Below, piece after piece: positions 2,221-7,325 of a stretch of 64,000 nt of DNA (position 1 is the stretch's first letter; each line of letters begins with the position of its first letter). The DNA comes from Escherichia phage EC1-UPM: the sequence record NC_041906.1; one strand, written 5' to 3'. The notes under the pieces are model-generated. The model was given only the letters and a program-made list of their open reading frames with translations, was not told the DNA's origin and did not search any database. The translations under genes and the position numbers were made by a program.

Positions 2221-3273
2221 ATGGCGAGCATTGACTCACTGACCGTATGTAATACACGTCAGGCCCGTAACTTTATTATTCGTGCCCTGCAAGCAGGTAA
2301 CGTACCGTTTCTGACTTCATCACCAGGTATGGGTAAATCTGCAATTATTCGTTCTGTTGCAGAAGAATTTGGTATGAAGCTGATAGACCATCGTCTGTCT
2401 ACTTCTGCCCCGGAAGACTTATCCGGTTTACCATTCCGTAATGGTGACCGTGCAGAGTTTATTCCTTTCGCTGATTTATTCCCTATCGAGGGGGATGAGA
2501 TACCAGAAGGATATAATGGCTGGCTCCTGTTCCTTGATGAGTTTCCATCTGCTCGCAAAGAAGTAATAGCTGCTGCATACAAGCTAATTCTCGACCGTAT
2601 GACTGGTCAGAAAAAACTTCATCCTAATGTGATGATTGTCTGTGCTGGTAACAAAGCTACTGACCGTGCCATTGTTAACCCATTAGGTACTGCAATGCAG
2701 TCTCGTGTGGTTCACTTTGAGATGGAACTTAACTTCGATGTCTTTGTTGAAGACGTAATGATTCCTCAACAATGGGATGAACGTCTGGTTGCATTCTTAC
2801 ATGCTAACCCTGGTTATCTGCATGACTTCGACCCAGCTCATAAGAACAAAACGTTCTGTTGCCCACGTACCTGGGACTTTGTTAACAAAGACCTTAAGAA
2901 CCAGCCAGAAGGTGCTCTGCCCGATGAAGATTCTCTTTACTACGCAGGACACGTTACTGCCGGTAAGGCTACAGAATTTGTTCAGTTTACCCAGGTATAC
3001 AATCGTATCATTACGATTGAGAAGGTAGTCAAAGACCCACTGGGCTGTGCACTACCAGAAGATAACAACCTGTGCTGGGCTACCGTTAATCATCTGGCTA
3101 ACAAGACTACTGAAGAGAACTTTGTTGATGTTCTTCAGTATATTGAACGTTTTAAAACGTTCACTCATAAGATTCTGTACTTCCGTACAGTAGGCAAAGC
3201 ATTACCAGAAATTCAGGCTACCCCTGAATGGCGTAAAGCTGCTGCTAATGTCTCTCGTTACATTCACGGATAA
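2221..3273 (+). CDS. AAA+ ATPase (MoxR-like)
   Basis: Walker A-like SSPGMGKSAI and Walker B-like LLFLDEF; 350 aa; directly upstream of a vWA-domain protein. Confidence 0.65.
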   Translation: MASIDSLTVCNTRQARNFIIRALQAGNVPFLTSSPGMGKSAIIRSVAEEFGMKLIDHRLSTSAPEDLSGLPFRNGDRAEFIPFADLFPIEGDEIPEGYNGWLLFLDEFPSARKEVIAAAYKLILDRMTGQKKLHPNVMIVCAGNKATDRAIVNPLGTAMQSRVVHFEMELNFDVFVEDVMIPQQWDERLVAFLHANPGYLHDFDPAHKNKTFCCPRTWDFVNKDLKNQPEGALPDEDSLYYAGHVTAGKATEFVQFTQVYNRIITIEKVVKDPLGCALPEDNNLCWATVNHLANKTTEENFVDVLQYIERFKTFTHKILYFRTVGKALPEIQATPEWRKAAANVSRYIHG

Positions 3274-3280
3274 TCGCAAC

Positions 3281-4456
3281 ATGAACCAATTTCCTCAGCA
3301 CACACTTAGTGATGAACAACTCATGCGTGAATATGACCGTATTCAGGCTAAGGCTTTCCTAGGACGCAGTGCTGCGTTCTTTGGTTCATTGCTGTGTAGT
3401 CTTAAGTTCTCATGGAAACGTGAGGATTGCCCCACTGCATGTACTGATGGGATAGAACTCCATTTCAATCCTGATTTCTTTATCTGGATGTGCCCAGATG
3501 CAAGAGAAACAGTATTAATGCATGAACTCTGGCATGTGGCTTATCTACACGACATCCGTCGTGGAAGCCGAGACCCAGAAGTCTGGAACCAGGCTTGTGA
3601 CCACTTCATTAACCTTCAGTTAGAAGAAGATGGTTACAAGTTCACTGGCATTGATGAAGGCATTTGCAAAGACCCTCAATATAAAGGATGGGTCGAAGAA
3701 GACATCTACGATGACCTGATGAAGAACCCCCAGAAAAGGCAGAAGCCGTCAGGGGGTGCTGGAGCAGGTCTTGCTGGCGACATGAAATCCCCCACTTCGG
3801 GGCAGTCCCAGGGTGCTGTCGTCAACAACGTAGTACGTGCAATGCAGAGCCAGAAAATGGCTGGTGGAACGATGCCTGGTAAGGGTGCTGGTCGTATGGA
3901 AGAGGTTATTACCCAATTCCTTAAACCAGTGGTTCCATGGCAAGAAGTCCTGATGAACTTCTTTACCGACATTGATGACACTCACTATACGTGGGCCAGA
4001 CCTAACCGTCGTTACACTGATATTTATCTACCTTCACTGGAAGATGATGAAGGACGCTTACGACACTTAGCCTACTTTGAGGATGTATCTGGTTCCATCA
4101 GTAGTACTGACTCTCTGCGTTTTAACTCAGAGGTTGCCTACGTTAAGAGCCAGTTCAATCCTAAGAAGATGACCCTAATCACCTTCGACGATGTTATCCA
4201 AGAAGAGATAGACATCACTGAAGAAGATACTTTTGAGGAGATTAAGATTACTGGTCGTGGTGGTACAAACCTGGAACCAGTACGTGATTGGATTATTAAG
4301 AATAAGCCAACCGCTGCAATCATATTCTCTGATATGTATGTTCGTCCAATGGAAGAACTACCATTTGATATCCCAATCATCTGGTGTGTTCTGAATAATC
4401 CTAATGCTACCGTACCTTTTGGGGAGGTAGTTCATATCCCTAAAGGAATGAAATGA
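3281..4456 (+). CDS. HExxH metallopeptidase-like / von Willebrand factor A domain protein
   Basis: HELWH (HExxH) motif in the N-terminal half, Gly/Ala-rich linker, DVSGS (DxSxS MIDAS-like) motif in the C-terminal half; ORF track start 3248 overlaps the upstream gene, ATG at 3281 just after its stop is preferred. Confidence 0.6.
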   Translation: MNQFPQHTLSDEQLMREYDRIQAKAFLGRSAAFFGSLLCSLKFSWKREDCPTACTDGIELHFNPDFFIWMCPDARETVLMHELWHVAYLHDIRRGSRDPEVWNQACDHFINLQLEEDGYKFTGIDEGICKDPQYKGWVEEDIYDDLMKNPQKRQKPSGGAGAGLAGDMKSPTSGQSQGAVVNNVVRAMQSQKMAGGTMPGKGAGRMEEVITQFLKPVVPWQEVLMNFFTDIDDTHYTWARPNRRYTDIYLPSLEDDEGRLRHLAYFEDVSGSISSTDSLRFNSEVAYVKSQFNPKKMTLITFDDVIQEEIDITEEDTFEEIKITGRGGTNLEPVRDWIIKNKPTAAIIFSDMYVRPMEELPFDIPIIWCVLNNPNATVPFGEVVHIPKGMK

Positions 4457-5938: not shown

Positions 5939-6381
5939 TGCGTATCCCATTCCTAAGAAAAAGGGAACGAAGCCATGTTCTTTATAAGAAGGACATAGAG
6001 AATGAGTATGAACTCAACCGTAAAGCCCGTTCCTACACAACAAAATTATTTATGGGGACTAAAAACCCTGATAGATTACTGGACTTTGTTTTTGAACAAG
6101 TCTTTATCATATACAGCTTAGCTATGTCTGCTGGTTCACAAGAAGTAAGTGATAAAGCAAGACATGCTCTCTGTATGCTCCGTAAAGAGTATGAAGCCCT
6201 CATGTATAGAGACTTGTACTCCTTTAAAGAAGAAACCGCTGTAGCGTGTTCTGTGGCTCTTACTGAAGGTGTAGCAGTATTACAGGAACTACCTCGTAGT
6301 GAGTTTAAGCTGGTATACGTTCAGGTTAAGAGAATCACAGAGACGAGAAGTGGTATCACCAACTATCTAAGGTCATTCTAA
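5938..6381 (+). CDS. hypothetical protein
   Basis: 147-aa ORF with start/stop overlap on both sides. Confidence 0.45.
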   Translation: MRIPFLRKRERSHVLYKKDIENEYELNRKARSYTTKLFMGTKNPDRLLDFVFEQVFIIYSLAMSAGSQEVSDKARHALCMLRKEYEALMYRDLYSFKEETAVACSVALTEGVAVLQELPRSEFKLVYVQVKRITETRSGITNYLRSF

Positions 6382-7325
6382 TGATTAAGGCATCAGTAAT
6401 TGCAGATTCCGTGCATCCAGAAACAGGAACTCGTATCACAACCTTTGAATTGGTTTATCCCCGATTCATTCACAGTGAGTTTATGACTCACCGTGTATTC
6501 AACCGCAATGCTTCAAGCAGTCGTGCTATTCCTACTTCTAAGCTTATCGAACAGGTTCGTAATGAACCAGTGATGCCAAGTCACTGGGGCAAGAACCAGA
6601 AAGGTATGCAAGCAGACGAAGAACTCACTCCTATGGAAATCGGGGATGCTAAGTTTATCTGGGATAACGCTGCATCTGCTGCTGCTGTGTATGCTGAACA
6701 GCTACGTCGTGGGCAAGTACATAAGCAGATTGTTAACCGTATTCTGGAACCCTTCACGCATATCCGTGTAGTGGTAACTTCAACAAGCTGGGCTAATTTC
6801 TATGGACTTCGTGACCACAAAGATGCACAACCAGAAATTCGTGAACTGGCTCAGGCAATGCGTAAGGCACACGAAGAAAGTGTTCCATCTAAACTCATAC
6901 AAGGACATTGGCATTTGCCGTATATCACTGCTAATGACCGTTTTGCTGCTTACGATTTCTGCAAACACAATCGAATTACACGCGATGAACCAAGTGGTGC
7001 AGAAGTGTATGGCTTACTTCTCAAAGTAAGTGCTGCACGCTGTGCCCGTGCTTCCTATAACAACTTTGAAGGACGTCCCTCTACCATTGAAGAAGACCTT
7101 GGCTTATTTGCTAAGTTAGTGGAAAACCAACCTATTCACGCTTCGCCAACGGAGCATCAGGCTACACCTATGAACCTTGGTGAGAAATACGTGAATAACA
7201 TGAACCCAGTTACATGGGAACAAGGTGTTACATCTATGGATAAAGAAGGGAATCTGTACTCAGGTAACCTGCTCCACTTTATCCAATTCCGTAAGTTAAT
7301 CCCAGGTGAGACTATTACTGAATGA
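6381..7325 (+). CDS. thyX: flavin-dependent thymidylate synthase (ThyX-like)
   Basis: 314 aa; THRVFNRNASSSR resembles the ThyX RHRxxxxxxxS signature; sits beside dCTP deaminase; assignment by motif only. Confidence 0.55.
   Translation: MIKASVIADSVHPETGTRITTFELVYPRFIHSEFMTHRVFNRNASSSRAIPTSKLIEQVRNEPVMPSHWGKNQKGMQADEELTPMEIGDAKFIWDNAASAAAVYAEQLRRGQVHKQIVNRILEPFTHIRVVVTSTSWANFYGLRDHKDAQPEIRELAQAMRKAHEESVPSKLIQGHWHLPYITANDRFAAYDFCKHNRITRDEPSGAEVYGLLLKVSAARCARASYNNFEGRPSTIEEDLGLFAKLVENQPIHASPTEHQATPMNLGEKYVNNMNPVTWEQGVTSMDKEGNLYSGNLLHFIQFRKLIPGETITE

What the first reader, a model, noticed from the sequence alone, without database searches (positions are those of the whole stretch)
2221..4456. 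AAA+ ATPase paired with an HExxH / vWA protein in the early region
A MoxR-like AAA+ ATPase (Walker A GMGKS) is followed, with overlapping stop and start region, by a protein combining an N-terminal HELWH metallopeptidase-like motif with a C-terminal vWA domain carrying a DxSxS MIDAS motif. MoxR-vWA pairs act as chaperone/remodelling systems; fusion with a putative metallopeptidase suggests targeted remodelling or cleavage of a host or phage protein early in infection.
Basis: partly seen in the sequence, partly recalled or inferred. Interest (0 to 1): 0.45.

Follow-up and report, generated by a model that had tools for sequence, protein, structure and literature searches.

The report
Phage AAA+ ATPase with protease-vWA partner
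This is the conserved gp24/gp25 gene pair of N4-like phages, a midasin/MoxR-type ATPase next to a zinc-protease-plus-vWA adaptor; it is already catalogued as a core gene pair and is also common on plasmids, but nobody has tested what it does.

Summary
Window 2221-3273 encodes a 350-aa AAA+ ATPase. Window 3281-4456 encodes a 391-aa protein with an N-terminal HExxH domain (Pfam DUF2201_N, E 1e-56) and a C-terminal minimal vWA domain (DUF2201, E 1e-33).

One detail is wrong. The true start of the second gene is ATG 3281, not 3248, so the genes lie 7 nt apart and do not overlap.

The window is a Gamaleyavirus (N4-like, about 94% identical to published coliphages). The genes are the orthologues of N4 gp24 and gp25, two of the 14 published core genes of N4-like phages.

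HExxH, a candidate third ligand (D107) and a full MIDAS motif (DxSxS...T...D) are invariant across distant relatives. So are the ATPase catalytic residues. The ATPase family profile matches midasin far better than any other solved AAA+ protein. The HExxH domain profile matches M48 and minigluzincin peptidases.

The same pair occurs in jumbo phages, cyanophages and plasmids or integrative elements of five bacterial phyla. An equivalent MoxR-vWA-metallopeptidase pair was described in jumbo phages in 2021.

The likely mechanism is an ATP-driven remodelling and cleavage machine. Its target is unknown. The pair is already known, so interest is modest.

The parts
2221..3273 (+). gp24-like AAA+ ATPase gene (350 aa), of the MoxR/midasin (AAA_5-like) type
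2320..2340 (+). Walker A / P-loop, SPGMGKS (G38 and K39 invariant)
2398..2433 (+). Conserved STSAPEDLSGLP motif inside the roughly 40-residue insert between strand 2 and strand 3 (a helix-2-insert-like element). P71 is invariant; P64, D66 and G69 are at least 90% conserved.
   Evidence: Alignments. This is a low-confidence loop in the model, residues 65-73. In phage PW8 an HNH/intron-like insertion splits the gene within these codons.
2524..2541 (+). Walker B, LLFLDE (D106 invariant, E107 at least 90% conserved)
2650..2652 (+). Sensor-1 asparagine N144 (AGN), invariant
2704..2706 (+). Candidate arginine finger R162 (QSRV), invariant
   Evidence: The assignment rests on its position before strand 5 and on the MoxR description in PMC7159879. 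It is an inference.
2866..2868 (+). Candidate sensor-2 arginine R216 (CPRTW), invariant
   Evidence: The assignment is an inference.
3281..4456 (+). gp25-like gene (391 aa): zincin-like metallopeptidase domain, partly disordered linker, then a minimal vWA domain
   Evidence: PF13203 at E 1e-56 and PF09967 at E 1e-33. Start codon argued. AlphaFold model with pLDDT 77.5. Annotated 'gp25' in St11Ph5.
3521..3535 (+). HELWH zinc-binding/catalytic motif (H81, E82 and H85 invariant in 54 close and 18 distant homologues)
   Evidence: It lies on predicted helix 72-87, preceded by three short strands. The profile matches M48 and minigluzincin structures across this strand-plus-helix region.
3587..3613 (+). 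N-x-A-x-D-x-x-x-N motif (N103, A105, D107 and N111 invariant). D107 is the candidate third zinc ligand, on the next helix, 22 residues after H85.
   Evidence: with the helix. The ligand role is inferred and was not checked on coordinates.
3728..4060 (+). Linker region, residues about 150-260. It has a Gly/Ser/Ala/Gln-rich segment followed by conserved helices and an invariant W-x-RP-x-RR motif (R243 and R244 at 4007-4012).
   Evidence: Low pLDDT for segments 157-164, 213-220, 232-242 and 248-258. Conservation. Sequence.
4082..4096 (+). MIDAS motif DVSGS (D268, S270, G271 and S272 invariant)
4265..4267 (+). MIDAS threonine T329 (GGT), invariant
4331..4333 (+). MIDAS aspartate D351 (FSD), invariant

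Best explanation
The two genes encode one machine.

Proposed steps:
1. gp24 is an active AAA+ ATPase of the MoxR/midasin (AAA_5) type and most likely forms a hexameric ring.
2. gp25 is its adaptor. The C-terminal minimal vWA domain holds a divalent cation in a complete MIDAS site and captures an acidic side chain of a client protein (or docks on the ring). CbbO, NorD, ViaA and the midasin MIDAS domain work this way.
3. ATP hydrolysis by gp24 pulls on or remodels the captured client.
4. The N-terminal M48/minigluzincin-like zinc peptidase domain of gp25 cuts the exposed polypeptide.

In effect this is a two-polypeptide, ATP-dependent metalloprotease/remodeller whose substrate choice is made by a MIDAS site.

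The module is a portable cassette of large mobile elements: N4-like, jumbo and cyanophages, plus plasmids and integrative elements. In this phage it is expressed with the middle (replication and nucleotide-metabolism) genes.

What is shown: the domain identities, intact catalytic and metal-binding residues, strict gene linkage, and the distribution.

What is inferred: ring formation, physical coupling, proteolysis, and the order of events.

The client is unknown. My weights for it are roughly 0.3 for a large assembly (virion or secretion apparatus), 0.3 for a host protein, 0.15 for a replication or nucleotide-metabolism enzyme, and the rest for something else.
For: ATPase:
- Invariant Walker A (G38, K39), Walker B (D106), sensor 1 (N144), R162 and R216 in 46 close and 16 distant homologues.
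- Confident model, pLDDT 87.4. It shows a long insert between strands 2 and 3 and a short hairpin before the sensor-1 strand.
- The family profile hits midasin at E 8.8e-34, against 8.5e-10 for the next AAA+ protein.
- AAA_5 is hit by 15/16 family members, and bpMoxR and AAA_3 by 6/16 each.

Partner protein:
- DUF2201_N plus DUF2201.
- HExxH, N103/A105/D107/N111, Y143 and the full MIDAS motif are invariant from N4-like phages to plasmids of several phyla.
- 10/54 homologues also hit VWA_CoxE.
- The N-domain profile hits M48 peptidase 3c37 (E 2.4e-4), minigluzincin MJ1213 (4e-4), HtpX (6e-3) and BepA (0.03).

Linkage:
- A gp24-type ATPase lies within 4 kb upstream of every DUF2201 gene for which flanking sequence was available.
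- It is directly adjacent in most of these loci.
- All these ATPases are mutually homologous.

Precedent:
- MoxR-vWA couples work as chaperone and co-chaperone (PMC7159879).
- The same architecture was described in jumbo phages (PMC7824862).
Against: - No experiment on any member was found.
- The window's own ATPase passes only the generic PF00004 threshold. AAA_5 scores 14.2 bits against a cut-off of 22.
- Neither structure search returned a zincin for the N-terminal domain, because vWA matches filled both lists.
- The metal-site geometry could not be inspected, and D107 as third ligand is an inference.
- Residues about 150-260 of gp25 are poorly modelled.
- The physical interaction was not modelled.
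- In Vequintavirinae the two genes are about 4 kb apart on opposite strands.
- In several proteobacterial plasmids an unrelated gene of about 300 codons sits between them. A third partner may therefore be needed in some lineages.
- Known MoxR-vWA systems mostly remodel or insert cofactors rather than degrade.
Confidence: 0.6

Rival explanations
1. Virion-assembly chaperone with processing protease. The pair folds, places and trims structural proteins. This was proposed for the equivalent pair of jumbo phages and shown for the peptidase-less MoxR-vWA pair of Acidianus two-tailed virus.
For: - The proposal is published (PMC7824862).
- In phAPEC6 the pair sits next to two virion structural genes, and the ATPase gave 6 peptides in virion mass spectrometry (PMC7247149).
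- In S-TIM5 a structural/packaging gene and Hsp20 flank the pair.
- In roseophages, virion-protein genes lie near the gp24/gp25 homologues (PMC4193335).
- In this window the Hoc-like decoration gene (84-917) is 1.3 kb upstream.
Against: - The same module is on plasmids that make no virions, including non-mobilizable ones such as Synechocystis pSYSA.
- In N4 the genes are middle transcripts, on the strand of the replication genes, not late structural genes (gene layout).
- The phAPEC6 virion list also contains thymidylate synthase, so contamination is likely.
- From memory only: neither protein is among the listed N4 virion proteins.
Confidence: 0.25
2. Host-takeover or counter-defence protease. 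The MIDAS site picks a host protein (a defence component or a host factor), and the ATPase and peptidase inactivate it. This benefits any incoming mobile element.
For: - The module is shared by lytic phages and by plasmids and integrative elements of five phyla. That fits a function directed at the host rather than at element-specific parts.
- On plasmids it lies among establishment and maintenance genes: toprim/DUF3991, ParAB and toxin-antitoxin pairs.
- It is expressed before the late genes.
- In Vequintavirinae an Srd-like anti-sigma gene lies directly upstream.
Against: - There is no hit to any PADLOC defence family and no anti-defence evidence.
- About 50% identity is kept across N4-like phages of very different hosts, and invariant motifs span phyla. 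This argues for a conserved client, which is unusual for arms-race proteins.
- Core-gene status is atypical of accessory counter-defence genes.
Confidence: 0.25
3. Classical MoxR-vWA maturation factor. The pair activates or inserts a metal cofactor into a replication or nucleotide-metabolism enzyme, as NorQ/NorD, CoxD/CoxE and CbbQ/CbbO do. On this view the HExxH domain serves as a metal-handling or binding module rather than a protease.
For: - The closest solved analogues include CbbQ and NorQ, plus the NorD VWA domain.
- 10/54 homologues hit VWA_CoxE.
- The pair lies within a few genes of a thymidylate synthase in three unrelated phage lineages, and next to dCTP deaminase here.
Against: - E82, the general base of HExxH, is invariant. 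That points to catalysis, not only metal binding.
- The plasmid contexts show no consistent metabolic neighbour.
- Proximity to thymidylate synthase may simply reflect the layout of middle-gene blocks.
Confidence: 0.1
4. The second gene is an HNH endonuclease, as many GenBank/RefSeq records and PHROG family phrog_1314 label it.
For: The label appears and in the annotations listed.
Against: - No HNH family is hit in Pfam. The whole length is accounted for by DUF2201_N plus DUF2201.
- The fold is vWA.
- Free-standing HNH genes are repeatedly inserted beside or inside these genes. That is a plausible source of the wrong label.
Confidence: 0.01

Closest known systems
Bacteriophage N4 gp24 (AAA ATPase) and gp25 (vWFA protein), core genes of N4-like phages (Schitoviridae)
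   Same: They are orthologues with the same order and the same neighbours (dCTP deaminase gp26, ThyX gp30, rIIA gp33). St11Ph5, 94% identical in DNA, is annotated gp24/gp25. The window protein is 62% identical to the protein of AlfredRasser, which I take to be an N4-genus phage. The two genes are listed among the 14 core genes and as middle transcripts (PMC4193335).
   Different: Nothing of substance differs. The function of the N4 proteins is itself recorded as unknown.
MoxR AAA+ / vWA pair with N-terminal metallopeptidase in group 2.2 jumbo phages (Iyer et al. 2021, PMC7824862)
   Same: The architecture and gene order are the same. The phAPEC6 pair (Asteriusvirus) is homologous to both window proteins: ATPase E 2e-22 and partner E 3e-26.
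   Different: The jumbo-phage proteins are longer (441 and 474 aa) and carry insertions. I could not confirm that the paper's example accessions are the same family, only that the architecture matches. The paper's proposed role (virion assembly) is not tested.
CbbQ/CbbO, NorQ/NorD, CoxD/CoxE and RavA/ViaA (bacterial MoxR-vWA chaperone couples)
   Same: Each is an AAA_5/MoxR-type ATPase encoded next to a MIDAS-bearing vWA protein. CbbQ, NorQ and the NorD VWA domain are among the structural matches. There are weak VWA_CoxE hits.
   Different: Those vWA partners have no peptidase domain and are much larger. Their clients are metabolic enzymes. The vWA domain here is a minimal version of about 125 residues. 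The window ATPase has an extra helical C-terminal region of about 120 residues.
Midasin / Rea1
   Different: Midasin is a single eukaryotic polypeptide of about 4,700-4,900 residues, which from my own knowledge carries six fused AAA modules. It has no peptidase and works in ribosome assembly.
Acidianus two-tailed virus p618 (MoxR) / p892 (vWA)
   Same: It is a virus-encoded MoxR-vWA couple, cited in PMC7824862 and PMC7159879.
   Different: It belongs to an archaeal virus, has no peptidase domain, and acts in extracellular tail growth. It was not compared by sequence here.
M48 peptidases (HtpX, BepA, Ste24) and minigluzincins (projannalysin MJ1213)
   Same: The profile of the gp25 N-domain aligns with their edge strand plus HExxH helix (E 2.4e-4 to 0.29).
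   Different: The matches are marginal and cover only 40-55 residues. The third-ligand motif (NxAxD) and the rest of the domain are specific to DUF2201_N. Apart from the soluble minigluzincins, the named M48 enzymes are membrane-bound or periplasmic; this domain has no evident membrane segment (not formally tested).
FtsH (AAA+ fused to an M41 zincin) and CLCA1 (zincin followed by a vWA domain, self-cleaving)
   Same: These are functional analogies recalled from general knowledge. FtsH is an ATP-driven zinc protease. CLCA1 is a zincin-plus-MIDAS vWA in one chain. The CLCA1 vWA domain is among the Foldseek matches.
   Different: No homology beyond the superfamily level was shown. The AAA+ clade, the domain order and the cellular setting all differ.

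Membership tests
DUF2201 family putative metallopeptidase (Pfam PF13203 + PF09967) | Both Pfam models matched above their gathering scores, in the order N-domain then VWA-like domain | tested here: met
   192.8 bits (cut-off 23.2) and 116.6 bits (cut-off 26.4). All 54 aligned homologues match both models.
N4 gp24/gp25 core gene pair of Schitoviridae | Orthology and synteny with N4-like genomes | tested here: met
   93-94% DNA identity to Gamaleyavirus genomes with gp24/gp25 notes. More than 1,100 homologues of each protein at about 50% identity, many on contigs of about 70-77 kb.
AAA+ ATPase | Walker A, Walker B, sensor 1, arginine finger and sensor 2 conserved; AAA+ fold | tested here: met
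MoxR / AAA_5 (dynein-midasin-CbbQ/NorQ) branch of AAA+ | Sequence-profile membership (Pfam AAA_5, AAA_3 or bpMoxR) | tested here: inconclusive
   The window protein alone is below threshold: AAA_5 14.2 bits against 22, and bpMoxR 13.4 against 27. At family level, AAA_5 is hit by 15/16 members (best E 6.9e-12) and midasin is the top PDB match at E 8.8e-34.
MoxR / AAA_5 branch of AAA+ | Helix-2 insert and pre-sensor-1 hairpin | tested here: inconclusive
   The model's secondary structure shows an insert of about 40 residues between strands 52-58 and 100-106, and short strands at 127-134 before strand 137-144. The insert has low confidence and coordinates could not be inspected.
MoxR-vWA couple | The ATPase is encoded next to a MIDAS-bearing vWA protein | tested here: met
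   There is a 7-nt gap here. The linkage is seen in every locus that had flanking sequence, across phages and plasmids.
vWA domain with MIDAS | DxSxS, a downstream Thr and a downstream Asp; Rossmann-like vWA fold | tested here: met
Zincin metallopeptidase (gluzincin-like, near M48/minigluzincins) | A conserved HExxH on a helix preceded by an edge strand, plus a third ligand on a following helix | tested here: inconclusive
   HExxH is invariant. The strand-helix order appears in the model. The profile matches M48 and minigluzincin structures at E 2.4e-4 to 6e-3. The third ligand (D107) is inferred only, and neither structure search listed a zincin match.
Zincin metallopeptidase | Zinc binding and peptide-bond hydrolysis | not testable with these tools
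   This needs biochemistry.
HNH endonuclease (database label phrog_1314 / RefSeq) | An HNH / beta-beta-alpha-metal motif or a Pfam HNH match | tested here: not met
   No HNH family appears among the Pfam hits of the protein or of its 54 homologues, even at E up to 1.
Known anti-phage defence system components (PADLOC) | A match to any PADLOC model | tested here: not met
   No hit for either protein at E up to 0.1.

The most novel reading that the evidence does not exclude
gp24/gp25 is the prototype of an unrecognised class of two-component, ATP-dependent metalloprotease. A midasin-like ring is coupled to a MIDAS-guided zinc peptidase. Large mobile elements (N4-like and jumbo phages, plasmids, integrative elements) would all carry it to destroy or remodel one conserved host protein when they establish themselves in a cell.
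Probability: 0.15. Interest if true: 0.65.

Novelty: already known. Interest (0 to 1): 0.3.

Why it matters
The pair is one of only 14 genes shared by all N4-like phages. A profile search finds its family in about 21,000 clusters at 50% identity across public data. Members sit on phages and on plasmids of at least five bacterial phyla. Even so, I found no experiment on any member.

Identifying the client would explain a core step in the life of a whole phage family and of many large plasmids. It might also add a new type of ATP-dependent protease.

There is a practical point as well. Many database records call the second protein an 'HNH endonuclease', which the sequence does not support.

Tried and rejected
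- **PDB sequence search with single proteins.** The ATPase gave only a weak midasin hit and the partner gave nothing. Family profiles were needed.
- **NCBIfam and PADLOC.** No hits.
- **Scan of genome contigs with the N4-like alignment.** The patterns were too specific and returned only N4-like sequences. Bacterial relatives were reached through the plasmid collection instead.
- **Search for a universal third component.** The genes of about 300 codons between or beside the pair were compared. The Burkholderia and Rhodovastum ones are related to each other. The Arcobacter one, the Srd-like gene of Vequintavirinae, and the phAPEC6 and PAc neighbours are not related to them. None has a counterpart in the window.
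- **Literature.** No functional study of N4 gp24/gp25 or of DUF2201 was found.
- **The HNH-endonuclease label.** Considered and rejected.
- **The 402-aa form of the second protein (start 3248).** Rejected in favour of 391 aa.
Full report
**What is there**

The window is a Gamaleyavirus, an N4-like podovirus of the family Schitoviridae. The 2,236 bases of the finding are 93-94% identical to about 50 published coliphage genomes (HK2, St11Ph5, ECBP1 and others). The rest of the window has the N4 layout: a block of + strand genes followed by − strand genes that include a 3,618-aa virion RNA polymerase.

Two + strand ORFs fill the reported interval.
- The first (2221-3273, 350 aa) has a strong ribosome-binding site and the P-loop SPGMGKS.
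- The second carries HELWH and DVSGS.

In St11Ph5 the two genes carry the notes 'gp24' and 'gp25', the N4 gene numbers. They are followed, as here, by dCTP deaminase, ThyX and rIIA.

**Correction of the coordinates**

That codon is ATA in St11Ph5. The ATG at 3281 is conserved in St11Ph5 and in a phage 79% identical in protein. Homologues are 370-396 aa long and begin at the equivalent of 3281. The second gene is therefore 3281-4456 (391 aa), 7 nt after the stop of the first. Its own stop overlaps the start of the dCTP deaminase gene (ATGA). I number residues on the 391-aa form.

**The ATPase**

Pfam gives only the generic AAA model for the window protein (E 3.7e-5). PHROGs place it in an 'ATPase' family (E 8e-133).
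- **Conservation.** More than 1,500 homologues were found. Those listed are about 50% identical to the window protein, and many lie on contigs of about 70-77 kb. In 46 close and 16 distant homologues the P-loop (G38, K39), Walker B (D106, with E107 at least 90% conserved), N144, R162 and R216 are invariant. So is P71 of a PEDLSGLP motif.
- **Model.** The AlphaFold model is confident (pLDDT 87.4). It shows a long, poorly ordered insert between strands 2 and 3, a small hairpin before the sensor-1 strand, and a helical C-terminal half.
- **Profile search.** This is the clearer signal. A profile of 16 diverse family members hits midasin at E 8.8e-34, while the next AAA+ protein scores 8.5e-10. Fifteen of the 16 members hit Pfam AAA_5, and six each hit bpMoxR and AAA_3.

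'MoxR-like' is thus right at the level of the AAA_5/MoxR branch, although the window protein alone does not pass those models' thresholds.

**The partner**

Pfam matches DUF2201_N ('putative metallopeptidase domain', E 1.2e-56) and DUF2201 ('VWA-like domain', E 9.5e-34). I aligned 54 homologues from N4-like sequences. I also made a deep alignment of 18 sequences that adds jumbo phage, cyanophage, Vequintavirinae, Aeromonas phage and five plasmid proteins at 21-30% identity.

The following residues never change:
- H81, E82, H85
- N103, A105, D107, N111
- Y143 and G200
- R243, R244
- D268, S270, G271, S272
- G328, T329
- D351

The MIDAS motif is complete (DxSxS, T, D).

The structure searches said nothing about the N-domain because vWA matches filled the lists. 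A sequence profile of the N-domain does reach solved zincins:
- M48 peptidase 3c37 (E 2.4e-4)
- minigluzincin MJ1213/projannalysin (4e-4)
- HtpX (6e-3)
- BepA (0.03)
- Ste24 (0.29)

The alignments printed for the best matches (3c37, MJ1213) run over the edge strand and the HExxH helix. Together with the strand-strand-strand-helix-helix order in the model, this makes a gluzincin-like peptidase domain likely. D107, on the next helix and 22 residues after H85, is the probable third ligand. That last point is an inference.

**The pair as a unit**

I collected 23 further loci. Wherever enough flanking DNA was available, a gp24-type ATPase lies upstream of the DUF2201 gene.
- **N4-like sequences:**
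- **Jumbo phage phAPEC6:** its depositors wrote 'MoxR ATPase' and 'N4 gp25-like protein'.
- **Cyanophage S-TIM5:**
- **Aeromonas phage PAc:**
- **Plasmids** of Rhodococcus, Nostoc, Synechocystis (pSYSA), Rhodovastum, Burkholderia, Arcobacter and Priestia.
- **A chromosomal conjugative element** of Burkholderia mayonis.

There are two kinds of exception. In Vequintavirinae the ATPase is about 4 kb away on the other strand. In three proteobacterial lineages a gene of about 300 codons is wedged between the two genes. It is related between Burkholderia and Rhodovastum but not to the Arcobacter gene.

All the ATPases are homologous to each other, so the two families have travelled together. A profile search of 1.84 billion representative proteins finds 21,475 clusters at E ≤ 1e-3 and 5,242 at E ≤ 1e-30. 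tblastn finds the partner in 740 phage records and 117 plasmid records.

**What is already known**

Zhao et al. 2009 listed N4 gp24 as 'putative ATPase, AAA superfamily' and gp25 as 'vWFA super-family', both of unknown function (PMC2784036). Chan et al. 2014 placed both among the 14 core genes of N4-like phages and noted that they are middle transcripts in N4 (PMC4193335). Later genome papers add 'putative metallopeptidase domain; pfam13203' (PMC6992544).

Iyer et al. [quoted passage not shown] They proposed virion assembly with proteolytic processing, by analogy with the MoxR-vWA pair of Acidianus two-tailed virus (PMC7824862).

No paper in the searchable library links N4-like phages with MoxR, or Schitoviridae with von Willebrand domains. 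I found no functional study.

**Mechanism**

The best-supported reading is a two-protein machine.
1. A hexameric AAA_5-type ring (gp24) is coupled to an adaptor (gp25).
2. The adaptor's MIDAS site binds an acidic residue of a client.
3. Its zincin domain cuts the polypeptide that the ATPase exposes.

Each element has precedent (MoxR-vWA couples, PMC7159879). The combination with an apparently active peptidase is what distinguishes the family.

Shown here: domain identity, intact catalytic residues, and linkage. Inferred: ring formation, the contact between the two proteins, proteolysis, and the client.

On the biological role the evidence pulls in different directions.
- **For an assembly role.** Neighbouring virion genes in phAPEC6, S-TIM5 and roseophages, together with the detection of the phAPEC6 ATPase in virion preparations, favour assembly. 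That preparation also contained thymidylate synthase.
- **Against a virion-specific role.** The module is present on plasmids, many of them non-mobilizable, and it is expressed in the middle phase.
- **For an enzyme-maturation role.** A thymidylate synthase gene lies within a few genes of the pair in three unrelated phage lineages.

I cannot decide between these.

**Verdict**

The finding is real and correctly read at the domain level. It is the well-catalogued gp24/gp25 core pair, and the same kind of system has been described in other phages. The open question of client and role is worthwhile but not new. I score interest at 0.3 and novelty as 'already known'.

Noticed in passing
L020 (phage PW8, PQ362703.1) 707-1575; corresponds to window about 2421-2425: In phage PW8 the gp24 ATPase gene is split by an insertion of about 870 nt, between gene positions 201 and 205, within the codons of the conserved EDLSGLP motif. 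The insertion carries an HNH endonuclease ORF and a sub-threshold Rfam group I intron match (RF00028, 25.6 bits against a gathering score of 50, E 0.0014). Truncated ATPase clusters P0141, P0145 and P0162 suggest that other phages have the same split.
   Followed up: partly
window 3281-4456; L001 7061-8236; L017 4977-6125: The gp25 family is labelled 'HNH endonuclease' in PHROGs (phrog_1314) and in many GenBank/RefSeq records (St11Ph5, S-TIM5, JWAlpha and others). No HNH domain is detectable. Free-standing HNH genes often lie beside or inside these genes (KpS8, PW8, pRBH2-3), which may be the origin of the label.
   Followed up: yes
L004 (Mesorhizobium yinganensis contig2, 727 kb), L003 (Roseococcus MAG contig, 297 kb): N4-like gene blocks in N4 order (gp24, gp25, dCTP deaminase, ThyX, helicase-region genes) lie inside very long bacterial contigs. 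This could mean integrated N4-like elements or assembly chimeras. N4-like phages are usually regarded as strictly lytic.
   Followed up: partly
L024 (Acinetobacter baumannii 'plasmid' pRBH2-3, 75,126 bp, circular): This record, deposited as a plasmid, carries an N4-type RNA polymerase gene, the gp24-like ATPase, an HNH gene and the gp25-like gene. It looks like an N4-like phage genome recovered with a clinical isolate.
   Followed up: no
L002 (JANQNF010000027.1, 69 kb contig of an 'archaeon' MAG): A contig binned as an archaeon encodes gp24/gp25 proteins, the gp25-like one 79% identical to the window's, with the same spacing. It is almost certainly a Gamaleyavirus-like phage contig that was mis-binned.
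   Followed up: no
window 6381-7325; L011 7961-8890; L017 7633-8304: A thymidylate synthase gene lies within a few genes downstream of the ATPase/peptidase-vWA pair in N4-like phages, jumbo phage phAPEC6 and cyanophage S-TIM5. S-TIM5 also has Hsp20 directly upstream.
   Followed up: no
L010 6013-6942, L015 5066-5965, L021 9064-9993, L023 3858-4850: On proteobacterial plasmids and on a Burkholderia conjugative element, a gene of about 300 codons with no detectable family sits between the ATPase and the peptidase-vWA gene. The Burkholderia and Rhodovastum versions are 32% identical. The Arcobacter one is unrelated. In Burkholderia the triad lies directly upstream of the type IV secretion genes and downstream of a Prok-E2/JAB/ThiF cluster.
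   Followed up: partly
L013 5203-6975 (Nostoc plasmid 'peptidase', 590 aa): This homologue has an extra N-terminal region of about 200 residues. It looks like a degenerate second copy of the peptidase domain (HCLLHLGFGH in place of HExxH, then WNAACN).
   Followed up: no
window 4453-4456: The stop codon of the peptidase-vWA gene overlaps the start codon of the dCTP deaminase gene (ATGA), which suggests translational coupling. The deaminase ORF here is 150 aa against 168 aa annotated in St11Ph5.
   Followed up: no
L016 3924-4901, L018 3546-4457 (Vequintavirinae): In rV5-like phages the peptidase-vWA gene is preceded by a gene annotated 'anti-sigma factor' (PHROG matches to Srd-like and sigma-70 decoy families, best match an 'HNH endonuclease' family). 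The MoxR-type ATPase gene is about 4 kb away on the opposite strand.
   Followed up: partly
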